Below are positions 8,870 through 46,646 of a stretch of DNA of 64,000 nucleotides, one piece after another. Both the position numbers and the translations under genes were made by a program. The notes beneath the pieces are model-generated. The model saw nothing but the letters and a program-made list of their open reading frames with translations. It was not told where the DNA came from and did no database searches. Source of the stretch: an uncultured Actinomycetota bacterium (lineage in GTDB: Bacteria > Actinomycetota > Actinomycetes > Propionibacteriales > Propionibacteriaceae); NCBI GenBank assembly GCA_963780005.1, contig CAWAAK010000028.1:37730-101729 (forward strand), given 5' to 3'. The first letter of the stretch is position 1; the number at the start of each line of letters is the position of its first letter.

Positions 8870-10935
8870 ATGAGTGAGCGGACCGAGACCCGGGTCGCCG
8901 ATGATCCCGGCGACGAGGATGGCGTGCTGAACAAGGCGCCGGAACGCCCGAAGTACCAGCCGTCGCAGGTTTCCCGGTTCCCCGGCGCCCCGATCGCGGC
9001 CGAGAAGTCGTTGAACTTCGGCCCGTCGCTGCGGCGGCTGCTCTCCCACCTGTCGCCCGAGCGCTTGATCCTGATCATCTGCGTCGCCCTGGCGACAGTC
9101 GGCATCGTGTTGAGCGTGATCGGCCCGATCATCCTGGGCTGGGCCACCAACGTGATCTTCACCGGGCGTGATCGGCAAGCAGTTCGCCGCCGGGCAGACG
9201 CAAGGCGCAGGTGGTCGAGCAGCTGCGGGCCAGCGGCCAGGGCACCTTCGCCGACCTGGTCGAGCCGGCTGGACATCACGCCCGGTCAAGGCATCGACTT
9301 CGGTGCGCTCGGCCAACTGCTGCTGATCGCCCTCGCGCTCTACGTGGTCAGCTCGCTGCTGCTCTGGCTGCAGGGCTATCTGCTGAACGGGGCGGTGCAG
9401 CGCTCGATCTTCACCATGCGCAACCAGGTCCAGGCCAAGCTCAACCGGCTGCCGCTGAGCTACTTCGACCGGTCGCCGCGCGGCGAGCTGCTGAGCCGGG
9501 TCACCAACGACATCGACAACATCGCCCAGGCCCTGCAGCAGACCCTGAGCCAGCTGCTGACCTCGTTGCTCACCGTGGTCGGGGTACTGATCATGATGTT
9601 CGTGGTCTCCCCGACCCTGGCCCTGATCGCCCTGGTCACCATCCCGGCCACCGTGCTGGTCGCCGGCGTCATCGGCAAGCGGTCGCAGAAGCTGTTCGTG
9701 GCCCAGTGGAAGGCGACGGGCGAGCTCAACGCCCACATCGAGGAGGCCTTCACCGGCCAGTCCCTGGTCAAGGTGTTCGGCCGCCGGCAGGAGGTCGAGG
9801 CCGCCTTCGCGGACCACAACGCGAATCTCTTCCGGTCCAGCTTCGGGGCCCAGTTCGTCTCCGGCATCATCATGCCGGCGGTGTTCTTCCTCGGGAATCT
9901 CAACTACGTGATCATCGCGGTGGTGGGCGGGCTGCGGGTGGCCACCGGCACCATGAGCCTCGGTGACGTCCAGGCCTTCATCCAGTACAGCCGGATGTTC
10001 ACCCAGCCGCTGACCCAGCTGGCCTCGATGGCCAACCTGCTGCAGTCCGGGGTGGCCTCGGCGGAGCGGGTGTTCGAGGTGCTCGACGTCGAGGAGGAGC
10101 GTGCCGACGAGCCGGGCCGGCTGAACCCGACCCGCGGCCGGGTGGCGTTCGAGCACGTCTCCTTCGCGTACGTGCCGAGCAAGCCGCTGATCACCGACCT
10201 GTCGCTGGTGGCCGAGCCGGGGCAGACGGTGGCCATCGTCGGGCCGACCGGGGCGGGCAAGACCACCCTGGTGAACCTGATCATGCGCTTCTACGAGTTG
10301 GACGCCGGCCGGATCACCCTGGACGGGGTGGACATCGCGACGGTGCCGCGACCGCTGCTGCGGGAGCAGATCGGCATGGTGCTGCAGGACACCTGGCTGT
10401 TCCACGGCACCATCCGGGAGAACATCGCCTACGGCCGGCCGGAGGCCAGCGAGGCCGAGATCCACGCCGCCGCCGAGGCCACCTACGTCGACCGGTTCGT
10501 GCACTCCCTGCCGGACGGCTACGACACGGTGATCGACGAAGAGGGCAGCAACATCAGCGCCGGCGAGAAGCAGTTGATCACCATCGCCCGCGCCTTCCTG
10601 GCCGACCCGGCGCTGTTGATCTTGGACGAGGCGACCAGTTCGGTGGACACCCGGACCGAGGTGCTGGTGCAGCGGGCGATGGCCGCGCTCCGCTCCGACC
10701 GCACCAGCTTCGTCATCGCGCACCGGCTCTCCACCATCCGCGACGCCGACGTGATCTTGGTGATGGAGCAGGGCAGATCGTCGAGCAGGGCTCCCACCAC
10801 GAGCTGCTGGACGCCCGCGGCCACTACTGGGAGCTCTACAACTCCCAGTTCTCCGCCGCCATCGAGGAACCGGAGGACGACCAAGTGCCGGTCCCCGTCG
10901 GTGCCCCCGCCGGCAACGGGGCGCGGCGCAGCTGA
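8870..10935 (+). pseudogene. ABC transporter permease/ATP-binding protein (partner half-transporter), at least 4 frameshifts
   Basis: The conserved segment VIGKQFAAGQTQ / QVVEQLRASGQGTFADLV / SRLDITPGQGIDF is spread over three frames between about 9165 and 9265. Walker A is GPTGAGKTT, signature ISAGEKQL, Walker B LLILDEATSSVD. The C-terminus shifts at about 10772 to QIVEQGSHHELLDARGHYWELYNSQF...* ending at 10935. Confidence 0.8.
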
Positions 10936-31374: not shown

Positions 31375-31614
31375 ATGCCTCGTACGCGGATCAGTACGAC
31401 CGTCGATCCCGCACTGCTCGGCCGGGCCCGCGCACTGGATCCCTCCGGCACCGACGCCCGGATGATCGAACGTGCTCTCGAGGCCCTGTTGGCCTCTCAT
31501 CGTCGGGCCGAGATCGACGCGGCGTATGCCCGCGGGTACGCCGAGCATCCCCTCGAGGATGCGGACGAATGGGGTGATCTGGCCAGCTTCGCGACCGCTG
31601 TTCGCGCCCGATGA
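31375..31614 (+). CDS. type II antitoxin (ribbon-helix-helix-like)
   Basis: MPRTRISTTVDPALLGRARAL...IERALEALL. ATGA overlap with the downstream toxin gene. Confidence 0.65.
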   Translation: MPRTRISTTVDPALLGRARALDPSGTDARMIERALEALLASHRRAEIDAAYARGYAEHPLEDADEWGDLASFATAVRAR

Positions 31615-31931
31615 CCCAAGCCGCCCACGGTGAGGTCTGGTGGTGCGAGCATCGCGACATCGGCCGACGACCGGTGCTCGTGCTCTCCCGCGCCGCGGCG
31701 ATGCGCGGGCGCGGGCTGGCCATGGTTGCGCCGTGCACCACGACGGTACGAGGGCTGCCCAGCGAAGTCGCGCTCACTCCCGGTGAGGATCCGGTGCCCC
31801 GCGAGTGCGTCGTGAATCTGGACTCGATCGAGCAGGTCTCCGTCGCGCTGCTGGTGGATCGGCTCGGCCTCGTCTCCGACGAGCGCATGCGGGAGGTGTG
31901 TGCGGCCCTGGGCGTTGCCGTCGATTGTTAG
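31611..31931 (+). CDS. mazF: MazF/PemK-family type II toxin endoribonuclease
   Basis: GEVWWCEHRDIGRRPVLVLSRAAA...MVAPCTTTVRGLPSEVAL...CVVNLDSIEQVSVALL. Confidence 0.75.
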   Translation: MTQAAHGEVWWCEHRDIGRRPVLVLSRAAAMRGRGLAMVAPCTTTVRGLPSEVALTPGEDPVPRECVVNLDSIEQVSVALLVDRLGLVSDERMREVCAALGVAVDC

Positions 31932-31932
31932 C

Positions 31933-31946
31933 GGCCAGCGCTGGCC
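31933..31946. terminator. GC-rich 14-bp palindrome GGCCAGCGCTGGCC between convergent mazF and dnaB
   Basis: Read directly from the sequence. It is the only structure in the 32-nt gap between the two stops. Confidence 0.4.
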
Positions 31947-31963
31947 TACCGGCTGTCGAATGA

Positions 31964-33323
31964 TCAGCGCTGCATGTCGGTGAACCGGCTGTAGTGGCCC
32001 TGGAAGGCGACGGTGATGGTCTTGGTGGGGCCGTTGCGGTGCTTGGCGACGTCGAAGTCGGCCTCGCCGGCCCGCTCGGAGTCCCGGTCGTAGAGGTCGG
32101 GGCGGCTGAGCAGGATGACCATGTCGGCGTCCTGCTCCAGCGAGCCGGACTCGCGCAGGTCCGACAGCACCGGGCGCTTGTCGACCCGGGTCTCCGGTCC
32201 GCGGTTCAACTGGGACAGGGCGACGACCGGCAGGTCGAGTTCCTTGGCCAGCAGCTTGAGCTGGCGGGAGAACTCGCTGACCTCGAGCTGACGGGACTCG
32301 ACCTTCTTGCCGGAGGTCATCAGCTGGATGTAGTCGATGACCACCAGCTTGAGATCATGCCGCTGCTTCAGCCGGCGGGCCTTCGCCCGGATCTCCATCA
32401 TGGTCAGGTTGGGGGAGTCGTCGATGAACATCGGCGCCTCGGAGACCTGTCCCATCCTGGTCGACACCCGGGACCAGTCCTGCTCGCTCATCCGGCCGCC
32501 GCGAATGTGGGACAACGGAATCCCGGCCTCGGCCGACAGCAGCCGCATGGTGATCTCGATCTGGCGACATCTCCAGGGAGAAGATCGCCGAGGTCAGATC
32601 GTTCTTGATCGAGGCCGAGCGGGCCAGATCCAGGGCCAGCGTCGACTTTCCGGCCCCCGGCCGGGCCGCCACGATGATCATCTGGCCGGGATGCAGCCCG
32701 TTCGTCAGCTCGTCCAGATCGGCGAACCCGGTCGGCACCCCCGACAGGCCGGCGCCGCGCGACTCGATGGCCTCCATCTCGTCCAGGGTCGGCTGCATCA
32801 ACTCCGACAGCGACTTGTAGTCCTCGCTGGCTCGCCGATCGGTGACCGCGTACACCTCCGCCTGGGCCCGGTCGACCAGGTCGGCGACGTCCCCCTCGGC
32901 GGCGTAGGACATCTGGCCGATGCGGATCGAGGCGTCGACGAGGCGGCGCAGGATCGCCTTCTCGCGGACGATTTCGGCGTAGAAACCGGCGTTGGCCGCC
33001 ACCGGCACGCTCTGCAGCAGATCGTGCAGGTACGGGGCGCCGCCGACCCGCATCAGCTCGCCGCGCTTGCCCAACTCCGCCGACACGGTCACCGCGTCGG
33101 CCGGCTCGCCCCGGCCGTACAGATCGATGACGGCCGCGTAGATCTGCTCGTGGGCCGGCCGGTAGAAGTCTGGCCCGCGCAGCACCTCGACGACATCGGC
33201 GATGGCGTCCTTGGACATCATCATGGCGCCGATCACGCACTGCTCGGCCACCATGTCCTGCGGCGGCGTCCGATCGCTCGCCCGACCCATTCCTGAGGGT
33301 GCCTCGTCATGATAGGGAGGCAT
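31964..33323 (-). pseudogene. dnaB: replicative DNA helicase DnaB, single frameshift near 32560-32570 (most likely an assembly error)
   Basis: The N-terminal ORF has ...PPQDMVAEQCVIGAMMMSKDAI..., Walker A ARPGAGKSTLALD and ...AIFSLEMS. The frame then breaks. The C-terminal ORF resumes MRLLSAEAGIPLSHIRGGRMSEQDW...LVVIDYIQLM...VALSQLNR...SDLRESGSLEQDAD...KHRNGPT. The span is 1360 nt and no intein is present. Confidence 0.9.
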
Positions 33324-35954: not shown

Positions 35955-38900
35955 TCAGGCCAGCCGAGCCCGGACCCGGCCCTCCATGGCTTCCTGCAGC
36001 ACCGTGACCGTCTCCGGCGCCAGGTCCACCCCGAGTTGCCGCGCCTGCGCCGCGAGCTGGAGGGTGAGGCGCTCGACCTCGGCGCGGTTGCCGGCCTGGT
36101 CTTCGGTGCGGATCCGGGCGACCAGCAGCAGCTCGTCACCGGGGGCGGCGGCCAGGGCTCGGGCGGCGGCCCACCGGGCCAGGTCGATGTCGTCCTCCTC
36201 GAGGGCCCGCCGGGCCAACTCGGCACCGATGTCGCGGACGGCGGAGATCATGTCGGTGCGCAACTCTTCGGCCCAGTGCCACTGTCCTGGAGCGGCGTCG
36301 GCCAGCGGTGCGCCGCGAACCAGCTCCAGCGCGGACCGCAACGCGGTGGTGCCGGCCTGGTTGACGCCGTGGGCGGTGAAGATCTGCAAGCGCTGCCAAT
36401 CCGAACTGACCGCGTTGTGCAGCTGGATCCGCCCGGAGTAGGCGTCCGGCAGGAAGGCGGAGCCGTCGTCGGCGGTGCCGAGCCACGTGCGGAGCCGGCT
36501 CATATTGGAGCGACGAGTGCCTTCGGCGACGACGAGGGACACCGCCATCCGGTGCGCCGTCGCGCCAGGGTTCTCCAGCAGCCAGCCGCAGTACTCCAGG
36601 CACTGCCGGGTGGCCCGGCTGGGCGCCGGGCCGGCCGCGCCGATGAGATCGATCGGGCCGAGCAGCCGCAGGGTGGGGTGCAGGGCGATCCTGTCGTCCC
36701 CGGCCCCGAAGTCCATTTCGCCTGTTTCCCCTTCCGTCCGTGTGGCCCAACCGCCGAGTCGATGAAGTTTTGTTGACGGCCCGAGATAGGTCACGTTGTC
36801 CGGCGGTGGAGCCGGATCCGGTGCGGGCCACCACGGCGCCGGGGTGGTCTGCTCGCTGCCGGTCGCGGCCACGAGTTCCACGAGGGCGGCGGCGGCCGGG
36901 GCCTCGATCAGCTGTGGCTTCAAGATCACCCCGGCCGGTTCGAGCGCGGCGCTCGGCTGCGCAAGCTCGGGTCCGGGCGGTTCGAGGATCAAGCTCCACT
37001 CGTGCTCCGCGGCCCGGGCGCCCGGCAGCACGGCCGCCATGGTCACCCGGGGCCGGCGGCTGAGCAGGTCCCGCAGTCGTTCGTCCTGGGCGGCGGCCAA
37101 GGGCTTGTTGATCAAAACGATCTCGGGCGCCCACGGGTCGGCCAGGTCGGGATCGACTCGGTGCTGCCCGGGAATCTCGTACGACTGCTGCTCCCGCTGC
37201 ACGGCGGCCCGAGCCTCGAGCCGGTCCAGCAGCGCGTCGACGTCGTCGGTGCTGGTCACGTTGTGCCGGCCGAGCGCCGCCGGCAGCTGCGGGAGCGTCC
37301 CCACCAACGTCAAGATCATTTCCTCGGCCCACGGGGAGAAGGACAGTTCGAGCGCCATGGCCGTGAGCGCGGCCTCGACCAGGGCCGGGTCCTCAGCGTG
37401 CAGCCGCAGCAGACCCAGCGTTTCCAAGTCACCGACGACTGGTCGGCCCGCCTCGTCCTGGCCCAGGGTCACCAGCGCCGGAAAGGGACGGGCGGCTTCG
37501 CCGAGACCGGGCACCGTCTTGAGGTAGCCGACATCGGCGGCGTCGAGCAGCCAGCGCGATCCGTCGGCCCGGAAACCCGGAGGTGCCTGAGGGGCCGGTT
37601 CGGTCCAGTGCAGCTCGAGGTGGTCATCGGACACGGTGGCGATGGTCAGGCAGGGCAGCGGACTGCGACCGTGGTGGCAGTGTGCGCCGATCGCCCGGGT
37701 GGCCAGATCCAGCGTGCGCAGCCCGAGCGGCCGGGCCCGGTGGCCCAGCACCACCTCGGCGGTGCGACCGGCCACGGGAGGGTGCAGGATCCGGCGACCC
37801 AGCGGCCGAGCCTGCAACTGCAGCCGGCGCCGCGCCGCCAGACCGGCGATCAACGAGGCAGAGAGCAGCGCGCCGGCCGCGGCCAAACCGGCCACGACCA
37901 GCTGAGTGTGGTCGCCGCTCGAGGTGCTCGAATCGGCACCATCGCGTGCCTTCGAGGTCTGGTCCGGCACCTGGGTCGGCGACGGCTCGGGCCCTGCTGG
38001 CGGCGATTCGGCCGGGGCGTTCTGGGGCGCCGAGGCAGGAGTCGTCGACTTGACCTTCGGCACGCCGGCCGTGCTGGTCCCGTCGCCGTTCTTCACGGGT
38101 TGGTCCTCTGGCTCGGTCTTGGCCCGGTCCTTCGACACGGCTTTCGTAGCGCGTGTCCGCGCTCCTGGGACGACGAGGCGCATGCCGATCAGCAGTTCGT
38201 CGGGATCGTCCAGTTGGAAGCGGTTGGCCCGCCACAACACCGGCCAGCGTCGTTCCGCGCCGTAGGCGCGCTGGGCAATGGCCGACAGGGTGTCGCCAGG
38301 CTGCACGACCACCGTTCGTTCGCCTTCGTCGCTGTCTGGCGCGGTTGCTGGTCCGGCCGCGCTTCCTCTCCCGATCGGAGTCGGGTTCCACGCCGGGGAT
38401 GCGCAGCTTCCAGCCCACGTCAAGCCGATCGGGCCCGCCACTGAGGCGGGACGGGTTGGCGGCGGCGATGCGGCGCCAGTCCGTACCCCGCCCGTAGTAA
38501 CGCTGAGCCAAGGACCACAGGTCATCACCGAGCTCGACAACATGCACGTGAACGTCGTCCCCCTTCGTTGTCCCGGGAGTGGCCGGCGTGGATGTCGCGG
38601 GGGGTTCCACCGCCCGTCGGGGGGGCTGAGCGGCAGCGGATGCAGGATCGTCGTCGAGGCGGGCCTCCGACGAGTGCGGGCTGATCGGCTCCGGCCGAGG
38701 CTCCCTCGGCGGTAGCTCCGCCGAGCTCAGTTGTGCCGTGCTCACCATGGCGATCACCGACACGAACAGGCCCGCCGCCAACCGCTGCGTCGCCGCCAAC
38801 CCCGGGACACCGGGCAGCCGAAGGCGTATTTGGCGGCCGGACACGAGTCCGACCAGTTCGCTGAGCGCGCCGAGCGTGAAGATCAACCAGGCCACCCACG

Positions 38901-39110
38901 CGACTCCGAAGAGGAGGGTGATCATGATGACGAGCGGGTCCGGGCCGGTCAGTAGCGCCAACGGATCGGACCACGCTGACAGCGCGGTCCAGAGTTGCCG
39001 GGTGAGCGCGAGCAGGAGCACCGGAACCCCGAACAGCCCGCCAGTCAGGGCGACGAGCGCGGCCAAGCCGCGGATCACCCGCATGGGCTGTCTTTCTCGG
39101 ACCGTGACAT
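35955..39110 (-). pseudogene. 4-TM membrane protein with two extracytoplasmic LysM domains and a cytoplasmic winged-helix + BTAD (SARP-like) C-terminus; about 1040 aa, one frameshift near 38330-38400 and possibly a second near the start
   Basis: N-terminal ORF: MRVIRGLAALVALTGGLFGVPVLLLAL..., two more TM helices, then LysM1 (HVVELGDDLWSLAQRYYGRGTDWRRIAAANP...GWKLRIP). After the frame change: LysM2 (VVVQPGDTLSAIAQRAYGAERRWPVLWRANR...GMRLVVP), a P/S/T linker, TM4 (LVVAGLAAAGALLSASLIAGLAA), and ~330 aa of unassigned sequence. Next comes LRLLGPIDLIGAAG...RATRQCLEYCGWLLENPGATAHRMAVSL...SRLRTWLG (wHTH), then the BTAD-like ...LELVRGAPLADA...WAEELR...LAAAPGDELLLVARIRTEDQAGNRAEVERL. The start is either ATG 39084 (MRVIRG) or the RBS-preceded ATG 39110, which is 1 nt out of frame. 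Confidence 0.7.
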
Positions 39111-39173
39111 GCGGCCCTCCTTCTCGCCTGGGCTCACCCTGACGGTCCGCCGAGGGGCGCGCCAGCGCTGAGT

Positions 39174-39200
39174 TGTTGTCGGTCGGCCTGAGGTGTTGTC
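39174..39200 (-). promoter_or_regulatory. two GACAACA heptamers 20 nt apart (minus-strand sense) upstream of the LysM/BTAD gene
   Basis: The minus strand reads GCGGACAACACCTCAGGCCGACCGACAACAACTCAG. The extended matches GCGGACAACACC and CGACCGACAACA recur at 46587-46650. Confidence 0.4.
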
Positions 39201-39203
39201 CGC

Positions 39204-40104
39204 TCATCCGGCCGGGCCCAGCAGGAGCGTCAACAGGGCAGCGACCAGGAAGATCAAACCGAAGATCAACGCCGGCAGTGTCATGTAGACCGTCATGCCT
39301 TCGGCGGCGGCGCTGGCCAGCAGGCGTTCCTTGGTCAGGTGCGCGTCCCGCAGTTCCTTGACCCGCGCCCGGAGGGTGCCCGACAGGGCCGCACCGGTTT
39401 CGTCCAGCTGCATCACGTCGGCGACATCATTCAGTTCCGGCAGGTCGAGCTGCTCGGCCAACCGCCGCAACTCACCGTACGGGGACTGCTGCTCGAGCCG
39501 CGCGCGTTCGAGGGCTATCCGGATCTGGCGGAACAGGGGGGCATCGCTCAGCTCGGCCGCCTGTTGGAGGGCCGAGGTGGCCGAGGCGTTGGCCAGCCGC
39601 TCCAGGGTGACCAGATCCAGGAAGACGAGTAGCGCCTCCACCGCGCTGGAGCGGGAGGCGCGCGCCGTCCGGCGCAGCAGCAGATCCGGGGCGAAGTATC
39701 CGGTCACCGCGCCGAGCAGGGCCAGCGCGGCCGGCCAGGCCGACGTACGGCCGGTGAGCAGCAGATAGCCGAAGCTCGACGGCGGTAGGGATCGCCGCCC
39801 CTACCACCGCCATCACGATCTTGTCGGCGTAGAACTCGGCCACCGACTTCCCCTGCAGCCGCAGGCTCTGGCGCTGTCGCTCGGTCAGCGGGATCGGGGA
39901 GTGTCGGAAGAGCCACGCGCCGAGCCGCTCCGAGGGGCTGCCTGCCATGGTGAGCTCGACGGGGTTCGAGGCGGAACCCGGCTCGCCGAAAACCCGCTGC
40001 AGCGCGGGTTCCAGCTTCGGCGGCGTGGGCACCAACGCCGCTGTGATGATCACCACACCTCCGGCGATCAGCAGTCCGGTGACCATGATCAACATCGGCG
40101 TCAT
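39204..40104 (-). pseudogene. tadC: Flp pilus assembly inner-membrane protein TadC (T2SS F-domain), one frameshift near 39778-39785
   Basis: MTPMLIMVTGLLIAGGVVIITAAL... then a frame change ...SSFGYLLLTGRTSAWPAALALLGAVTGYFAPDLLLRR...ELRRLAEQLDLPELNDVADVMQ...TVYMTLPALIFGLIFLVAALL. ATGA overlaps at both ends. Confidence 0.75.
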
Positions 40105-40971
40105 CGCCGGGCTCCGACCAGGATCCGTTCCCGCGGTGTCTGCTGAGCCTTGCGTCGCAGCAGGATGAGCGAGCCGAGATAGAGCACCACCAACACGGAC
40201 AGGATCAGCTGCCCGAGAGGCGTGCCGTACCCGGCGAAGAAGCTGGGTGACAGCACAAAGACCCCGCCCAGGGTGACCAGGCTGATGATCGTGACCTGTC
40301 GGACCACCACGTACGGCTTCGCCCGCTCGGTCTCGATCAGCCGTCGCCCCTTCAATTGATCTTGGATCGAATCGGCCAGGGCGGACAGGGTCATGCGAGG
40401 CGCCATTGGCACCGCGCCGTGCCGCCAAGATCAATGCCGCCACCACTCCATCGGCGTCGGGTGAGTCCAGTGCGTCCGCGAAGCTGCGCAGGGCATCGGC
40501 GGTATCCCAACGATTGTTCAGTCGATCGACCAGCCGGCCCACCTCGGGCAGCAACCGTGCCGGGGCGGTACGGCGCGAGATCCGGATGGCGTCAGTGACC
40601 GAACGGCCGGTGGTCATCGACGCCGCCAGCGCCCGGACCCAGCGGTCGAGGTCCTCCAGCAGTTCGACGTCTCGGGCTTTCGGCAGGACGAGCAGGTACG
40701 GCAACCCGATCGCCAGGATGGGAGCAGCCACGACGGCGACCGCCCACCCGGACAGCCCGGCCACGATCAGGCCGACGACCACACTGACGACGATCCGCAG
40801 ATCGCGGTTCCGGCCCGTGCGGCCCGGCGGGCGGCGGGTCAACCGAGCCCAGCACTCCGCCACAGATTCGCTCCGCCGAGTGCGGGTTGGCCACCCTCGG
40901 GACCAACCTGCAACGGCAAGCACCGCGCCGCCGACCAGCAGCACTCCCGCCACGACCGCGACCGCGGTCAT
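40101..40971 (-). pseudogene. tadB: Flp pilus assembly inner-membrane protein TadB, one frameshift near 40400-40420
   Basis: MTAVAVVAGVLLVGGAVLAVAGW...LPYLLVLPKARDVELLEDLDRWVRALAASMTTGRSVTDAIRIS... then a frame change ...TLSALADSIQDQLKGRRLIETERAKPYVVVRQVTIISLVTLGGVFVL. Confidence 0.75.
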
Positions 40972-42492
40972 GATGGACTCCCCGGCGCCAGCAGCTGAGC
41001 GGACTCTGGTAGGGCGCGGGCGAAGGGCAACAGTTCGGCTTCGAAGTCGGCGTCCGGGGTGAATCCCGCGGGCGCGGTGCGCGACCCCGTAGCCGAGTAG
41101 GTCAGGTGGGTTACCGGCCGACCATTCTCCAGCGCCCCGGTCGCCTGACGGATCTCGGAGATGTAGCGGCGACGGACTCCGCCCTTCCACGTTTCGTCCA
41201 CCAGGCGGACGTAGATGAACAAGGCGATGTTGTGCGCCACCTGGCGGTAGGCCTCGTCGATGGTCAACACTCCGCCCTGCGCGACCCGGGACGCCAACCG
41301 ATCGATCGTGGAGTCGGCAGAGTGTGAGTGGGTGGTGCTCATGGTGCCGGTGCCGGCCTGCATGGCTTCGAACATGGCGGCGGCTTCTCCGCCGCGGACC
41401 TCCCCGACGATGAGCCGGGAAAGGTTCTGCCGCAACGCTTCGGGCATCAGGTCGCTGATGGTGAACTCACCGACCCGACTGCCGCCGTTCGTTTCGCCGT
41501 GGCCGACCCGGGACTGCAGGGCAAGGATGTTCTCCCGGCCCGGCTGCAGGTGGGTCATCAGTTCGTAGTCGGTCTCGAGGGTGCCGAACCGTTCAGTGGC
41601 GGGGATCGCGTGGATCAGGGCTCGCAGCAAAGTGGTCTTGCCTGCGCCTTGATCGCCGGCGATCACCATCGACTTGCGAGCCAGCACAGCGGCGTCGAGG
41701 AATTGCGCCACCTCGGCCGGCATCAGTCCGCCGGCCACCAGGTCGGTGAGGGAGACGTCGGTGAGGATGTGTTGCCGGATCACCACACTCGGCCGGTACG
41801 ACAATCCGAAACCCATGGCGTGCAGGCGGAACCGTTCCCCGAGCGCCAAGGTGATGGTCGGGTGGGTGTCGTCGAACGGTCGCGACGGCTCCCCGTTCTG
41901 GCCGAGGAAACGGATCGCGTCGATCAGTTCGAGCGTCGCTGTCGGCGACCGGCGGCCGCTGCTCACGCCGCCCGTCGCCGTACTGGACCACGACCGAGTC
42001 GCACCCGGAGATCTCGATGTTCTCCACGTCGGGCAGCTCCAGCAGCGGTTGCAGCCGGCCGTAGCCGAAGACGGCGTTCTCCACTGCCTCGACGAACTGC
42101 TCCTCCTGCGCCCGCGACCACAGATCGGCCCCTTCCCGGTGCAGGGTTCGAACGTGATCGCCGACCACGCGGCGGATGACCGCCCGACCGAGAAGGACCC
42201 GATCGTCGGCGTGCATAGCCCGCCCCGTGCGAGTCGACTCGGACGCCCCCTCTTCGGTGATCAGTGCGGACGCCTGCCGTCGGAGCTCGACCACCGTCGG
42301 CCAGTCGACGAGCGACGGCGCCAGGCGCACTCCGAACTCGGCGACCTCTGGAGCCGTGAACGTGGTCCGCGGCGTGCTGTCGGCGCGCCCGCTTGTGTCG
42401 GCGGGTGCCTTGTCGAGTTCGCCGAGCAGGGGGACGTCCGCCAAGGACGCCTCGGCCGTCGGGTCGGCTTGGTCCGCGTGGAGGTCGGTCAT
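40968..42492 (-). pseudogene. tadA: CpaF/TadA secretion ATPase, one frameshift near 41931-41950
   Basis: The N-terminal ORF runs to ...NIEISGCDSVVVQYGDGRREQRPPVADSD. The frame then changes to ELIDAIRFLG...VIAGDQGAGKTTLLRAL (Walker A)...RLIVGEVRGGEAAAMFEAMQAGTGTMSTTHS (Walker B/His box). Confidence 0.85.
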
Positions 42493-43278
42493 GATCGGCC
42501 ACCGATCAGCTCGGCATGCAGTTCCAACCGATCCGAGAGATCGGTCGCCGTCGTGTGCAGTGCCCGGGCGAAGGCCGACGTATCGAATCTGCGGGCCCGA
42601 TCGCGGCCATCGGAGAGATGTCCGGCCGACGACGGATCCCACGGGATGGTTCCCGTCACGCGCACGGCCAATGCCCGGCCGATCTCCCGAGCGGAATAGG
42701 GCCTGCCTTCACCGACCACGATCAGGCCCAGGCGGCTGTCGCCTGCGTGGTTTCGGCGGTCCTCCACCAGAACCGGCAGGTGCACTTGCGCCGATACCAC
42801 CGCACGCAGGTCCGAGCGGACGACCAGTCCGGTGAAGGCCGCCGCATCCGCCAGTGGAGCGGGCAGGCCGCGGGGTCCGAGCCGGCCCGCATCGACCACC
42901 ACGTCGACGCCGATGTCCCCCAAGGCGTCGAAGGCGGCGACGAGATCCGCCCAGACACCAGCGAAGATGGCGGCGCTACCGGGACGGTTGAAGCCGGGCA
43001 GGAAGTGCCGCTGATGATCACCAGTCGGTGACCAGCGGCAGCGTCTGGTCGAGGATCACCTCGGTGAGCGGTCGGCGATCGCGGTGTGCCTCAGCGACTC
43101 GCAGCAAACCCTTGCCGTCCGAGCTCTGCCCGGCCAGGAATCCGGCCAGCACGGCTTGGTGGGCGCCTGGATCACAGTCGGCGAGCACCACCGACCGCGG
43201 CCAGGCGAGCGCCAATCCTACGGCGAGGGTCGTGACTCCGGGAGCACCGGAGACCGATCCGAGGACGACGATGGCCAT
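42489..43278 (-). pseudogene. tadZ: TadZ/CpaE-like ParA-fold protein with a degenerate Walker A, one frameshift near 43015-43025
   Basis: MAIVVLGSVSGAPGVTTLAVGLALAW has no Walker lysine. ...PLVTD / frame change / HFLPGFNRPGSAAIF...DVVVDAGRLGP...TGLVVRSDLRAVVSAQ...IPWDPSSAG. Confidence 0.7.
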
Positions 43279-43285
43279 GATCAAC

Positions 43286-43429
43286 TCACCCTGCTCGCCG
43301 CAGGGGCCTGAGCTCGCTGCGCTCGCACCCTCTTCACCCTGCTCGCCGCAGGGGCCTGAGCTCGCTGCGCTCGCACCCTCTTCACCCTGCTCGCCGCAGG
43401 GGCCTGAGCTCGCTGCGCTCGCACGCCGT
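43286..43429. repeat. three tandem 48-bp repeats filling the cpaB-tadZ intergenic gap
   Basis: Units lie at 43286-43333, 43334-43381 and 43382-43429. The first two are identical and the third diverges in its last ~8 nt. Each contains the hairpin CCCTGC-TCGCC-GCAGGG. The core recurs at 35239. Confidence 0.9.
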
Positions 43430-45803: not shown

Positions 45804-46541
45804 TCATGCTGCCTCGGCAATGGCTGCTGCCGACCGGGCCATTCGGCGTAGGGCCCAGCTGCATCGATAGCGCACCATCGCGGGGGTGGTGTGATGGCGG
45901 AGGGCGGCGTACCGTCCGGACGCGCCGTCGACGTACACCGTGTGCAGCAGGGCGGCGGTGGCCTGATCGATCACGCCGATCACGCGCGCGGTGGCGATCA
46001 CCCGGCCGGCGTCCCGGCAGGCCGCGAAGCCGTTGTGGTCCAGGACTTCGGAGTCTGTCCGCCGGTGCAGCACGTGCTCCCAGGTGGACTCCGACCAGGA
46101 TCCAGCACTCACCTCCAACCGGCGGGTGGACAAGCGGCCCAGGACGTCCTTGCGGGTATCCCAGGCGAGGTTGGCGGCGATCCGCCGGGGCCGCCGCGTC
46201 AGCGGGTAGCTGCGGATGCGACACCACAGCGCGGACACGAAGTCGTCAACGGCGACGCCCGGATTGGCCTGGGAGAGGCGGACCACCTTGCCCAGCATGG
46301 TCTGCAGCACGACCCGCCCGGCCAGCGTGTCGCCGTCCAGGACGAGGGCCACGAGAGCGCCGAGCACCGGGTCCGGGTCGGCGCAGATCTCGTCCAACAC
46401 GTCGGCCAGATCCGTGCAACGCGAGAGGGCGGGACGGGTCGCCGCCCATCCGGCCACTCGGCTCTGGTCACCTTCGACCAGGCGTTGCCACTCTGCGTTC
46501 AACCCGTCGATGAGCGCGTATCGCGATGACTGCTGCGGCAC
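45804..46541 (-). CDS. hypothetical protein at the head of the tad cluster, weakly sigma-70/ECF-like (tentative)
   Basis: GTG at 46541 with a GGAGG RBS 7 nt upstream. DDFVSALWCRIRSYPLTRRPRRIAANLAWDTRKDVL resembles sigma region 2. AALRHHTTPAMVRYRCSWALRRMA resembles the region 4 HTH. No strong motif, so only the ORF call itself is confident. Confidence 0.35.
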   Translation of the reverse strand: MPQQSSRYALIDGLNAEWQRLVEGDQSRVAGWAATRPALSRCTDLADVLDEICADPDPVLGALVALVLDGDTLAGRVVLQTMLGKVVRLSQANPGVAVDDFVSALWCRIRSYPLTRRPRRIAANLAWDTRKDVLGRLSTRRLEVSAGSWSESTWEHVLHRRTDSEVLDHNGFAACRDAGRVIATARVIGVIDQATAALLHTVYVDGASGRYAALRHHTTPAMVRYRCSWALRRMARSAAAIAEAA

Positions 46542-46586
46542 GATGGGGCCTCCTCGACTCGGGTCGAGACGAGCCTGCCGGGAAGG

Positions 46587-46646
46587 TGTTGTCCGCATTG
46601 TTGTCCGACACCCAGCGGGTGTCGTCGCTCAGCTGGAGGTGTTGTC
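46587..46646 (-). promoter_or_regulatory. array of four direct GAC(A/G)ACA heptamers spaced 20, 21 and 12 nt (minus-strand sense), 45-105 nt upstream of the first tad-cluster gene
   Basis: Plus-strand TGTTGTC at 46587, 46599 and 46640; TGTCGTC at 46620. CAGGCT lies 9 nt downstream of the proximal repeat on the minus strand. Confidence 0.45.

What the first reader, a model, noticed from the sequence alone, without database searches (positions are those of the whole stretch)
35955..39110. Membrane-anchored LysM-LysM / winged-helix-BTAD protein as the last tad-operon gene: a possible one-component, peptidoglycan-sensing SARP-like regulator
After joining the two ORFs at the frame break, the protein is about 1040 aa.
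- Three N-terminal TM helices.
- Two LysM domains, predicted to be outside the membrane.
- A P/S/T-rich linker, then a fourth TM helix.
- About 330 aa of cytoplasmic sequence that I cannot assign.
- A C-terminal OmpR/SARP-type winged helix followed by a BTAD-like helical domain.

Soluble SARPs are well known. A SARP-type output tethered to the membrane and coupled to extracytoplasmic LysM domains, sitting in a pilus operon, would be a ToxR-like architecture that I do not know to be characterised.

One weak observation on the unassigned region: the segment VTLGQDEAGRPVVGDLETLGLLRLHAEDPALVEAALTAMALEL resembles the neighbourhood of the P-loop in FtsK/EccC-type ATPases but lacks GxxGxGK[ST].
Basis: inference. 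Interest (0 to 1): 0.72.

Follow-up and report, generated by a model that had tools for sequence, protein, structure and literature searches.

The report
Membrane-anchored LysM/SARP protein of Tad operons
The last gene of this actinobacterial Tad-pilus operon encodes one 1042-residue membrane protein with cell-wall-binding LysM domains outside and, inside, an inactive FtsK-like ATPase fold plus a complete SARP-type DNA-binding module; it belongs to a very large, uncharacterised family that is probably a membrane-tethered regulator of the pilus genes, though it may instead be a scaffold.

Summary
The two minus-strand ORFs (37624..39207 and 35955..38543) are one gene. It is split by a single extra base at window 38336, when compared with a 99.5 %-identical public contig that encodes an intact 1042-aa protein. 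The window has similar one-base insertions in tadA, tadB, tadC and dnaB, so the break is most likely a sequence error.

The predicted domain order is:
- 3 TM helices
- 2 LysM domains (outside)
- a P/S/T-rich linker
- TM4
- a 339-aa FtsK/EccC-like fold with no Walker A or B motif in any family member
- a SARP module (wHTH + BTAD), whose only strong structural matches are AfsR and EmbR

The true start is ATG 39084, not 39110, which is out of frame.

The family is large: more than 3,300 clusters at 50 % identity. It is the last gene of tad loci in Propionibacteriales, Kitasatospora, Modestobacter and the Cutibacterium acnes plasmid.

GACAACA(C) direct repeats spaced 20/21/12 bp, with the 3' copy 8–9 bp from a −10-like hexamer, lie upstream of the operon and of this gene. 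That is SARP-type promoter architecture. The link is circumstantial: a sister clade with the same recognition helix lacks the repeats, and a sigma-like gene co-occurs with them. This is a new variant of known kinds, and its function is unproven.

The parts
35955..39084 (-). Whole gene. It encodes 1042 aa once the extra base at 38336 is removed, and the stop codon is included. Domain order: 3TM, LysM, LysM, linker, TM4, FtsK-like pseudo-ATPase, wHTH, BTAD.
   Evidence: The corrected protein differs from P0001 at 6 of 1042 residues.
38336..38336 (-). Single extra base (G on the minus strand) that causes the apparent frame break.
   Evidence: this position is a gap in L001. P0001 reads ...TSNRANSDEGE... 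through this point.
38725..39069 (-). N-terminal three-helix membrane domain: TM1 39004-39069, TM2 38863-38934, TM3 38725-38781.
   Evidence: Hydropathy. Loop charges follow the positive-inside rule. Coordinates.
38392..38544 (-). LysM domain 1, predicted to be extracytoplasmic.
   Evidence: Pfam PF01476, E 7.5e-8. Coordinates.
38163..38312 (-). LysM domain 2, predicted to be extracytoplasmic.
   Evidence: Pfam PF01476, E 1.9e-7. Coordinates.
37902..38162 (-). P/S/T/A-rich low-complexity linker, 87 aa.
   Evidence: Composition. This is the least conserved part of the protein, about 21 % mean identity.
37836..37901 (-). TM4, followed by an Arg-rich juxtamembrane stretch (ARRRLQLQARPLGRR).
36819..37835 (-). 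FtsK/EccC-like RecA-type domain with no Walker A or B motif (pseudo-ATPase), 339 aa.
   Evidence: AF2 model with pLDDT 91. Top Foldseek PDB hits are the FtsK motor, TcpA, EccC and EssC, E down to 2e-7. No P-loop or acidic Walker B in 28 family members. No Pfam or PDB sequence hit.
36384..36686 (-). OmpR/SARP-type winged helix. The recognition helix is TRRSNMSRLRTWLG.
   Evidence: Family profile against EmbR and AfsR. The wHTH-only profile hits CadC at E 6e-5. Fold match. The helix is invariant in 80 loci.
35958..36383 (-). BTAD (TPR-like helical) domain packed on the wHTH, completing the SARP module.
39174..39200 (-). Pair of GACAACA direct repeats 20 bp apart. They lie between the tadC stop and the gene start.
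   Evidence: The pair is conserved at this position in 36 of 66 orthologous loci scored.
46587..46646 (-). Four-copy GACAACAC-type direct-repeat array (copies at 46646, 46626, 46605 and 46593; spacing 20/21/12) upstream of the operon.
   Evidence: The same 20/21/12 layout is seen in many species.
46572..46577 (-). -10-like hexamer CAGGCT. It lies 9 nt after the 3' heptamer, which is 8 nt after the octamer GACAACAC.
   Evidence: CAGATT, CAGGCT or CAGGGT sits at the same distance in orthologous loci.
45804..46541 (-). First gene after the array: a 245-aa divergent sigma-70/ECF-like protein. It is a possible partner or an alternative trans-factor.
39075..39110 (-). 11-codon uORF behind a strong AAGGAGG ribosome-binding site, overlapping the main ATG at 39084.
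   Evidence: Analogous short uORFs with a TGATG overlap occur in orthologous loci.
39204..42492 (-). tadA (40968-42492), tadB (40101-40971) and tadC (39204-40104), directly upstream. In the window each is broken by a 1-nt insertion.

Best explanation
What it is. The gene encodes a polytopic membrane protein that is a conserved accessory component of actinobacterial Tad (Flp) pilus loci.

Shown or predicted from sequence:
- Three N-terminal TM helices.
- Two LysM domains predicted to face the cell wall.
- A fourth TM helix.
- A cytoplasmic FtsK/EccC-like RecA fold that has lost its nucleotide-binding motifs.
- A complete SARP module (OmpR-type winged helix plus BTAD).

Inferred mechanism:
1. 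The protein acts like a ToxR/CadC-type membrane-tethered one-component activator.
2. The pseudo-ATPase domain serves as an oligomerisation or docking platform, standing where the NOD stands in large SARPs such as AfsR.
3. This platform presents several SARP modules to arrays of GACAACAC direct repeats.
4. The repeats lie on one face of the helix (20/21/12-bp spacing), next to a weak -10 upstream of the tad operon and again in front of its own gene.
5. The result would be activation of the pilus genes and of itself.
6. The LysM domains anchor the protein in peptidoglycan. They may also couple its activity to the state of the wall or of the pilus machine.

The frame break in the window is a sequence error.
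For: One polypeptide:
- 109 homologues were found, most of them 950-1150 aa and covering 96 % of the joined query.
- A 98 %-identical intact copy exists.
- The break is one inserted base among 11 such insertions in 23 kb, including dnaB and tadABC.

LysM and topology:
- Two LysM domains.
- Charge distribution fits LysM outside and the C-terminus inside.

FtsK-like domain:
- pLDDT 91.
- The top 30 Foldseek hits are FtsK, TcpA, EccC and EssC.
- The Walker A loop is replaced by a 2-4-residue turn, and Walker B is absent, in all 28 aligned members.

SARP module:
- The family profile matches EmbR residues 15-257 at E 2e-15 and AfsR at E 2e-8.
- The AF2 model has pLDDT 93.
- The only five PDB matches below E 1e-3 are AfsR-TIC and EmbR, with TM 0.66-0.69 over the whole module.
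- The SARP module is the most conserved part of the protein, 54-56 % mean identity against 38 % for the FtsK-like domain.
- The recognition helix TRRSN[ML]SRLRxWLG is invariant in 80 loci.

Cis elements:
- In 1.36 Mb of orthologous loci GACAACA occurs 232 times on the gene strand and 52 times on the other.
- 180 of the gene-strand copies are in clusters, with spacings of 20 (55 cases), 21 (24) and 12 bp (20).
- The clusters sit at two fixed places: upstream of the operon, and between tadC and this gene.
- The 3' copy lies 8-9 bp from a conserved CAG(A/G)(T/C/G)T hexamer.
- This matches the published rule for SARP promoters: repeats about 11 or 22 bp apart, with the 3' repeat 8 bp from the -10 (PMC10936776).
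- These are the only such clusters on that strand in the 64-kb window.
- Kitasatospora, whose recognition helix differs, has a different heptamer (ATGGTCC) repeated at 43/22 bp upstream of its tad cluster.
Against: - No binding or expression data exist.
- Micropruina, Propionicimonas and Auraticoccus loci carry the identical recognition helix but have no GACAACA arrays within 10 kb upstream.
- The C. acnes plasmid has the 21/12 array, but its protein has a different recognition helix.
- Wherever a sigma-like gene is present, the arrays lie directly in front of it: 12 of 12 loci. Another factor could therefore own them.
- The window clade has a 4-residue deletion that removes the W-P motif, which contacts DNA in AfsR and is conserved in SARPs.
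- Pfam does not recognise BTAD or Trans_reg_C in the window protein. Profiles built only from close relatives hit nothing but LysM proteins in the PDB.
- The internal repeat pair lies 30-45 nt from its -10-like hexamer, which does not follow the 8-bp rule.
- A regulator need not be conserved as the last gene of nearly every actinobacterial tad locus, plasmid-borne ones included.
Confidence: 0.5

Rival explanations
1. Structural scaffold, not a DNA-binding regulator. On this reading the protein is a peptidoglycan-anchored assembly or positioning subunit of the Gram-positive Tad machine, working like FimV, HubP or TsaP (LysM outside, TM, TPR-like scaffold inside). The pseudo-ATPase ring and the TPR-like BTAD would dock TadZ (a ParA/MinD-like protein) or the TadA hexamer. 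The winged helix would be retained only as a structural part of the SARP fold.
For: - It is the last gene of tad loci in Propionibacteriales, Kitasatospora, Modestobacter and the C. acnes plasmid.
- The family has more than 3,300 clusters and occurs on 180 plasmid records. That pattern suits a machine part.
- The LysM part resembles TsaP and other envelope-machine LysM proteins.
- BTAD scores strongly against TPR proteins.
- Clades with an identical helix lack the arrays.
- The SARP-typical W-P DNA-contact motif is deleted in this clade.
Against: - The wHTH, and especially the recognition helix, is the most conserved segment of the protein. That is unexpected for a vestigial DNA-binding element.
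- The whole SARP module, not just the TPR-like part, superposes on DNA-bound AfsR.
- SARP-type repeat arrays sit at the operon promoter.
- No sequence similarity to FimV or HubP was found beyond LysM.
Confidence: 0.3
2. Sigma-factor partner. On this reading the protein controls the operon through the divergent sigma-70/ECF-like protein encoded at the head of the operon. It would either hold that protein at the membrane in the manner of an anti-sigma factor, or act as its adaptor, since the SARP BTAD and wHTH contact sigma region 4 in the AfsR complex. The GACAACA arrays would then belong to the sigma-like factor or to another regulator.
For: - The 245-aa first gene has homologues carrying Sigma70_r4_2 or Sigma70_r4 and named sigma-24 family.
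- A profile HMM finds this gene directly downstream of the array in 12 of 12 loci that have it, including Enemella and the C. acnes plasmid.
- Clades without the sigma-like gene also lack arrays.
- An extracytoplasmic sensor, a TM helix and a cytoplasmic binding domain is the usual anti-sigma layout (established knowledge).
- AfsR SARP contacts sigma R4 (PMC10936776).
Against: - Sigma factors are not known to need 3-4 direct repeats at helical-turn spacing. Such arrays are typical of OmpR/PhoB/SARP winged helices.
- About 25 loci have arrays but no detectable sigma-like gene next to them.
- No similarity to known anti-sigma domains was found.
Confidence: 0.12
3. Real frameshift. On this reading the two ORFs are separate genes or a decaying pseudogene in this strain, so the LysM and SARP parts are not on one polypeptide.
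For: The window as given has no single ORF across 38336. No reads are available to check the base.
Against: - A 99.5 %-identical contig lacks the base and encodes the intact protein.
- All 9 in-gene indels between the two sequences are insertions in the window. They also break dnaB, tadA, tadB and tadC.
- Frame A after the break is 250 aa of Arg-rich sequence with low third-position GC.
- The downstream part has no start codon or signal sequence of its own ahead of LysM2.
Confidence: 0.04

Closest known systems
SARP family (AfsR SARP domain, PDB 8HVR/8K60; EmbR, PDB 2FEZ; small SARPs such as ActII-ORF4, RedD and DnrI)
   Same: - A contiguous OmpR-type winged helix plus BTAD module. These are the only strong structural matches, and the family profile matches them.
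- Candidate target promoters with direct repeats at one- or two-turn spacing, and the 3' repeat 8-9 bp from a weak -10.
- Like the large SARPs, the module is joined to a P-loop-NTPase-type fold.
   Different: - The module is C-terminal, not N-terminal.
- The protein is membrane-anchored, with extracytoplasmic LysM domains.
- The attached NTPase fold is FtsK/HerA-type and catalytically dead, not a STAND/NOD ATPase.
- The W-P DNA-contact motif is deleted in the window clade.
- Pfam BTAD and Trans_reg_C models do not score the window protein.
- The genomic context is a pilus operon, not a biosynthetic gene cluster.
ToxR-like membrane-integrated one-component regulators (ToxR, TcpP, CadC)
   Same: - An OmpR-type winged helix is tethered to the membrane in the same polypeptide as an extracytoplasmic domain.
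- The wHTH-only profile hits the CadC DNA-binding domain at E 6e-5 and, more weakly, ToxR.
   Different: - Orientation is reversed: here the sensor is N-terminal and the wHTH C-terminal.
- There are four TM helices instead of one.
- About 340 aa of pseudo-ATPase lie between the membrane and the wHTH.
- A BTAD is present.
- No homology outside the wHTH.
FtsK/SpoIIIE/EccC/EssC/TcpA (FtsK-HerA superfamily), especially the degenerate ATPase domains of EccC and EssC
   Same: - The fold of the 339-aa domain.
- Its position just after a TM helix.
- The local sequence pattern PALVxLG..G..V..DLE..G.L...G, which corresponds to the strand leading into the P-loop.
   Different: - No GxxGxGK[ST] and no acidic Walker B in any member.
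- No sequence-level hit to Pfam FtsK_SpoIIIE or to any PDB chain.
- A single domain, not a tandem.
- No FtsK-gamma-type wHTH.
FimV / HubP / TsaP (LysM-anchored scaffolds of type IV pilus and polar machineries)
   Same: - An extracytoplasmic LysM domain plus a TM helix plus a cytoplasmic TPR-like region.
- Encoded with, or acting on, a type IV filament machine.
- The LysM region of the family profile matches TsaP.
   Different: - No similarity beyond LysM.
- Those proteins have no winged helix and no RecA-like domain.
- FimV and HubP are Gram-negative.
PAGK_2369 / WP_015588743 of the Cutibacterium acnes HL096PA1 plasmid tad locus
   Same: - A family member: 27-29 % identity over 89 % of the length.
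- The same position, after the tadE/tadG-like genes.
- Listed with 'LysM, BTAD' domains in PMC3666418.
- The same GACAAC[AG] repeats, spaced 21/12, upstream of a sigma-like gene.
   Different: - The recognition helix differs: STVRSIATHLRHWLG.
- It is plasmid-borne.
- It was mislabelled 'TadB' in that paper and never studied functionally.

Membership tests
LysM domain proteins (PF01476) | Pfam LysM match above the gathering score. | tested here: met
   Two domains score 32.6 and 31.3 bits against a cut-off of 20.9. The NCBIfam LysM model also hits.
SARP (Streptomyces antibiotic regulatory protein) family | A contiguous OmpR-type winged helix followed by a BTAD, folding as one module like AfsR and EmbR. 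| tested here: met
   The family profile matches EmbR 15-257 at E 2e-15 and AfsR at E 2e-8. The AF2 model has pLDDT 93. Its only hits below E 1e-3 are AfsR and EmbR, TM 0.66-0.69.
SARP (Streptomyces antibiotic regulatory protein) family | Pfam BTAD (PF03704) and/or Trans_reg_C (PF00486) recognised in the protein itself. | tested here: not met
   There is no hit at E<=1 on the window ORFs or on the 243-aa C-terminus. BTAD is found in 13 of 31 aligned family members and Trans_reg_C in 1 of 31.
SARP (Streptomyces antibiotic regulatory protein) family | Conserved DNA-contact residues of the ODB domain. In AfsR these are Q48, W74, P79, T88, R94 and K95 (PMC10936776). | tested here: inconclusive
   The W-P motif is present in distant members (ALWPG) but deleted in the window clade (AL----VV). 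The recognition-helix core S-R-L-R is retained and invariant. Residue-by-residue equivalence with AfsR is my own alignment by motif, not a tool result.
SARP (Streptomyces antibiotic regulatory protein) family | Binds direct repeats spaced about 11 or 22 bp, with the 3' repeat 8 bp from the -10, and activates transcription. | not testable with these tools
   Promoter geometry of this kind is present and conserved. Binding and activation need experiments.
SARP (Streptomyces antibiotic regulatory protein) family | A soluble cytoplasmic protein with the SARP module at the N-terminus. | tested here: not met
   The module is at residues 800-1042, behind four TM helices.
ToxR-like membrane-integrated one-component regulators | N-terminal cytoplasmic wHTH, a single TM helix, and a C-terminal periplasmic sensor. 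| tested here: not met
   The order is reversed and there are four TM helices. Only the wHTH is similar (CadC E 6e-5). It may work like one, but it is not a member.
FtsK/SpoIIIE/EccC ATPases (FtsK-HerA superfamily) | A RecA-like motor-domain fold. | tested here: met
   Foldseek hits: FtsK 6t8o and 2ius at E 2e-7 to 4e-6, TcpA, EccC, EssC, and EccCb1-D2 at TM 0.44/0.52 with rmsd 5.4. The query model has pLDDT 91.
FtsK/SpoIIIE/EccC ATPases (FtsK-HerA superfamily) | Walker A GxxGxGK[ST] and Walker B hhhhDE. | tested here: not met
   Neither motif is present in any of 28 aligned members. The P-loop is replaced by a short G-D-P/AED turn, and the Walker B strand ends in IVLxN/G.
FtsK/SpoIIIE/EccC ATPases (FtsK-HerA superfamily) | Sequence-level match to Pfam FtsK_SpoIIIE or to solved FtsK or EccC chains. 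| tested here: not met
   No Pfam hit. The profile against PDB sequences gives nothing better than E 0.1, and that hit (midasin) is unrelated.
Tad (Flp) pilus locus components | Conserved co-location and co-orientation with tadA, tadB, tadC, flp and tadE. | tested here: met
   tadA-tadB-tadC lie directly upstream on the same strand in essentially every locus with enough flank. The same holds in Kitasatospora, Modestobacter and the C. acnes plasmid.
FimV/HubP/TsaP-type LysM scaffolds | Homology beyond the LysM domain (FimV C-terminal TPR, HubP repeats, TsaP linker domains). | tested here: not met
   The full-length family profile matches TsaP and other LysM proteins only over the LysM region.

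The most novel reading that the evidence does not exclude
The protein is both a part of the Tad machine and its transcription factor. It would be a peptidoglycan-anchored, oligomeric (FtsK-like ring) SARP sitting at the pilus base. It would translate the assembly or load state of the pilus, or the state of the wall around it, directly into activation of the flp-tad promoter and of its own gene, possibly together with the operon's own sigma-like factor. That would be a one-protein surface-sensing feedback loop in Gram-positive bacteria, and the first membrane-embedded SARP.
Probability: 0.2. Interest if true: 0.85.

Novelty: new variant of a known kind. Interest (0 to 1): 0.62.

Why it matters
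How Tad pili of Actinomycetota are assembled through a thick wall, and how they are regulated, is essentially unknown. These pili are implicated in colonisation by bifidobacteria, adhesion of Actinoplanes zoospores, DNA uptake in Micrococcus, and the acne-associated Cutibacterium plasmid.

This gene is conserved in such loci across the phylum and has no name beyond 'LysM domain protein'. Showing that its cytoplasmic half is a dead FtsK-like fold plus a full SARP module gives a concrete hypothesis that can be tested directly: defined DNA arrays, a defined recognition helix, and defined domains.

If confirmed, three things would follow:
- The SARP family would extend from soluble antibiotic-cluster activators to membrane-tethered regulators of a surface organelle.
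- A Gram-positive counterpart of ToxR/CadC-type signalling would be established.
- Annotators could label more than 3,000 protein clusters.

Tried and rejected
- Pfam directly on both window ORFs and on the C-terminal 243 aa found only LysM. 'No wHTH/BTAD' was rejected only after the family-profile and fold tests.
- phmmer of the window C-terminus against PDB sequences found nothing.
- A profile of close relatives only (A4) found only LysM proteins.
- A profile of the middle domain against PDB sequences found nothing significant. The FtsK assignment therefore rests on the predicted fold.
- NCBIfam has no family model beyond LysM.
It was redone with a narrower alignment, so the 80 loci returned are all Propionibacteriales.
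- The sigma-70 consensus promoter scan found no hits in the operon region.
The ATG at 39207 is in frame and overlaps the tadC stop. It was rejected because the 41-aa extension is not conserved and would contain the repeat pair.
- A search for GACAACA-type arrays in the Micropruina, Propionicimonas and Auraticoccus loci found none. Those loci have a DnaA-box-like TTATCCACAGATT instead.
- An attempt to align the recognition helix to AfsR residue by residue using a wHTH-only profile returned only CadC.
- Five literature searches found no functional study of this family.

Full report
**1. The observation**

On the minus strand there are two long ORFs, 37624..39207 (527 aa) and 35955..38543 (862 aa). 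Third-position GC shows the real coding frame passing from the first to the second between about 38390 and 38330.

A public protein, P0001 (1042 aa), is 98 % identical to the joined product as a single polypeptide. P0002 (84 %) and dozens of 950-1150-aa homologues cover 96 % of the joined query.

The contig that encodes P0001 (L001) is 99.5 % identical to the window over 23 kb. The two differ by 14 one-base gaps. All nine that fall inside genes are extra bases in the window. They hit the tadZ-like gene, tadA, tadB, tadC, this gene (38336, GCCA[G]ACAGC), an MFS gene (twice), dnaB and a GNAT gene.

Removing base 38336 restores a 1042-aa ORF that differs from P0001 at six residues. The frame break is therefore almost certainly a sequence error in the window, not a pseudogene and not two genes. 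Only reads could prove this.

The start is ATG 39084. All homologues begin at MRVIRG or its equivalent.

**2. Anatomy**

- *Membrane segments.* Hydropathy gives four membrane segments, at residues 6-27, 51-74, 102-120 and 395-416 of the 1042-aa protein.
- *Topology.* Loop charges follow the positive-inside rule: N-tail +2, loop 1 +1/-2, loop 2 +4/-1, and +7/0 after TM4. This puts the segment between TM3 and TM4 outside and the C-terminal 626 aa inside. This is an inference. No dedicated topology predictor was available.
- *Outside segment.* It holds two LysM domains (Pfam E 7.5e-8 and 1.9e-7) and an 87-aa P/S/T/A-rich linker.
- *'Unassignable' 339 aa.* This stretch has no Pfam, NCBIfam or PDB sequence match. 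With a 28-sequence family alignment AlphaFold2 gives a confident model (pLDDT 91, pTM 0.90). Its best PDB matches are uniformly FtsK motor domains, the conjugative coupling protein TcpA, and EccC and EssC ATPase domains (E 2e-7 to 1e-4).
In all 28 aligned members the Walker A loop is replaced by a 2-4-residue turn, and the Walker B strand carries no acidic pair. The domain is a family-wide pseudo-ATPase of the FtsK-HerA type.
- *C-terminal 243 aa.* It gives no Pfam hit on its own and no PDB hit by phmmer. A profile of 31 family members matches EmbR residues 15-257 (E 2e-15) and the AfsR SARP domain (E 2e-8) end to end. 13 of the 31 members carry Pfam BTAD.
- *Fold of the C-terminus.* The AF2 model of the window's own sequence (pLDDT 93) has exactly five PDB matches below E 1e-3. 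They are the AfsR SARP domain in two transcription-initiation complexes and EmbR, with TM 0.66-0.69 over the whole module.
- *wHTH alone.* The wHTH-only profile hits the DNA-binding domain of CadC.

The middle region can now also be named.

**3. Context and distribution**

The window locus, read on the minus strand, runs in this order:
1. a sigma-like gene
2. flp
3. tadE
4. tadE
5. a tadG-like gene
6. a SAF/CpaB-like gene
7. a tadZ-like gene
8. tadA
9. tadB
10. tadC
11. this gene

A ribD_C-like gene follows 32 nt downstream with no terminator-like site in between. 'Last tad gene' is correct, but the transcript may run on.

A scan of one genome per species found 245 relatives. The best 80 are all Propionibacteriales: Microlunatus, Friedmanniella, Micropruina, Propionicimonas, Auraticoccus and Enemella. 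In practically every locus with enough flank, tadA-tadB-tadC lie directly upstream on the same strand. In the deeper clade, flp and two tadE genes are inserted before this gene.

The same position is found in:
- Kitasatospora
- Modestobacter
- the C. acnes HL096PA1 plasmid

For that plasmid, a 2013 paper lists the gene with 'LysM, BTAD' domains under the wrong name TadB (PMC3666418).

A profile of the pseudo-ATPase domain finds 3,363 clusters at 50 % identity with E<=1e-10. The best 150 are nearly all about 1000-1200 aa, with the domain at the same relative position. 180 plasmid records carry a member.

All are annotated only as LysM proteins. No paper in the searchable library studies them.

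**4. Evidence bearing on function**

*(a) Conservation.*
- The SARP module is the best-conserved part of the protein: 54-56 % mean pairwise identity. The FtsK-like domain is at 38 % and the linkers at about 20 %.
- The recognition helix TRRSN[ML]SRLRxWLG is invariant in all 80 Propionibacteriales loci, even where overall identity is 36-41 %.

*(b) Cis elements.*
There are 12 copies in the window against 3.8 expected.
- With one mismatch allowed, the only clusters on the gene strand in 64 kb are two. One is a four-copy array at 46646/46626/46605/46593, upstream of the operon. The other is a pair at 39200/39180, between tadC and this gene.
- Across 1.36 Mb of orthologous loci there are 232 copies on the gene strand and 52 on the other. 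180 of the gene-strand copies are clustered. The spacings are 20 bp (55 cases), 21 bp (24) and 12 bp (20).
- The 20/21/12 layout recurs in species after species.
- The 3' copy is followed, after 8-9 nt, by a conserved -10-like CAGATT, CAGGCT or CAGGGT.
- SARP-dependent promoters are described as direct repeats 11 or 22 bp apart with the 3' repeat 8 bp from the -10, and with a weak -10 such as CACTGT (PMC10936776). The resemblance is close.
- In Kitasatospora, where the helix differs, a different heptamer (ATGGTCC) is repeated at 43/22 bp upstream of the tad cluster. That is a single case.

*(c) Counter-evidence.*
- Micropruina, Propionicimonas and Auraticoccus have the same helix but no arrays in the 10 kb upstream. 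Their tad promoter region carries a conserved DnaA-box-like gagTTATCCACAGATT instead.
- The C. acnes plasmid has GACAACG/GACAACA/GACAACA at 21/12 spacing, although its protein has a different helix.
- In all 12 loci where a profile HMM detects the divergent sigma-like gene, the array lies directly in front of it. However, about 25 loci have arrays without that gene next to them.
- The window clade has lost four residues of the helix-turn-helix loop, including the W-P pair that contacts DNA in AfsR and is conserved among SARPs.

It is therefore unresolved which protein reads the arrays.

**5. Most likely mechanism**

I put about 0.5 on a ToxR/CadC-like, membrane-tethered SARP activator of the tad operon. 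It would be anchored in peptidoglycan by its LysM pair. It would be oligomerised or docked through the dead FtsK-like domain, which plays the part the NOD plays in AfsR. It would bind the GACAACAC arrays and autoregulate.

What is shown or predicted from sequence: the domain folds, the loss of the ATPase motifs, the fusion into one polypeptide, the synteny, and the existence, geometry and conservation of the arrays.

What is inferred: the topology, DNA binding, the target, activation, and any sensing by LysM.

The rivals are:
- A FimV/HubP/TsaP-like scaffold with no DNA role (0.3).
- A partner or anti-sigma-like controller of the operon's own sigma-like factor (0.12).
- A real frameshift (0.04).

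The first two rivals are not exclusive with a regulatory role.

**6. Comparison and novelty**

By fold the protein contains a SARP module. It fails several features of the family as usually defined: it is not soluble, the module is not N-terminal, Pfam does not recognise it, and the W-P motif is missing. I would call it SARP-module-containing rather than a SARP.

It has the logic of ToxR-like regulators but is not a member, because the order is reversed and there are four TM helices. It has the FtsK fold but not the defining motifs.

The combination of LysM, TM, FtsK-like pseudo-ATPase and SARP as a standing component of Tad loci is, as far as the searched literature shows, undescribed beyond a table entry. 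I rate it a new variant of known kinds. Interest is moderate to high because the family is huge, the locus type matters for colonisation and adhesion, and the hypothesis can now be tested sharply. No function has been demonstrated here.

Noticed in passing
window 26520, 31949, 32563, 34323, 34326, 38336, 39777, 40395, 41934, 43024, 43410: The window carries eleven single-base insertions relative to a 99.5 %-identical public contig. None is in a homopolymer. Nine of them break genes: GNAT, dnaB, MFS (twice), this gene, tadC, tadB, tadA and the tadZ-like gene. Any ORF-based reading of this window will be fragmented.
   Followed up: partly
window 43286-43424: A perfect 48-bp tandem repeat (2.9 copies, 100 % match) exactly fills the gap between the SAF/CpaB-like gene and the tadZ-like gene of the operon. 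It contains the palindromic CTGAGCTCG. Its function is unknown.
   Followed up: no
window 39075-39110 (minus strand); orthologous loci such as L005 and L009 just upstream of position 10001: A short uORF sits behind a strong Shine-Dalgarno sequence (AAGGAGG) and overlaps the start codon of the LysM/SARP gene, which has no good ribosome-binding site of its own. In many related species the uORF encodes MxERVxx* and ends in a TGATG overlap. This suggests translational coupling or leader-peptide control.
   Followed up: partly
window 45804-46541 (minus strand): The first gene after the upstream repeat array encodes a 245-aa protein with no Pfam hit of its own. Its homologues carry Sigma70_r4_2 or Sigma70_r4 and are named sigma-24 family. 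It appears to be a divergent sigma-like factor dedicated to this tad locus, and it is also present on the C. acnes plasmid.
   Followed up: partly
L067, L069, L074, L075, L077, L079 and L081, about 100-150 nt upstream of the SAF/CpaB-like gene: In the Micropruina, Propionicimonas and Auraticoccus clade the tad promoter region has no GACAACA arrays. It has instead a conserved motif, gagTTATCCACAGATT (TTGTCCACA in one locus), which is identical to a DnaA box and overlaps the -10-like CAGATT.
   Followed up: no
L084 (C. acnes HL096PA1 plasmid) 2120-2160: GACAACG, GACAACA and GACAACA spaced 21 and 12 bp lie about 60 nt upstream of the plasmid's sigma-like gene. This is the same array layout as in Microlunatus, despite only 27-29 % identity of the LysM/SARP protein.
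   Followed up: partly
L082 (Kitasatospora) 208-300: Direct repeats CC(C/G)ATGGTCCCGC at 43- and 22-bp spacing lie upstream of the first gene of the Kitasatospora tad cluster. They may be a clade-specific counterpart of the GACAACA arrays.
   Followed up: no
window 42488-43276 (minus strand; L001 5811-6599): The 262-aa gene before tadA looks like TadZ/CpaE: a ParA/MinD-like N-terminus with GSVSGAPGVTT in place of a canonical P-loop. It has no Pfam hit. With it, the locus has two degenerate NTPase folds.
   Followed up: no
window about 31580-32150 (L001 16947-17503): A PemK-family toxin gene with a small upstream partner sits next to the dnaB-like helicase gene, downstream of the tad locus. This could be part of a mobile or accessory region.
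   Followed up: no
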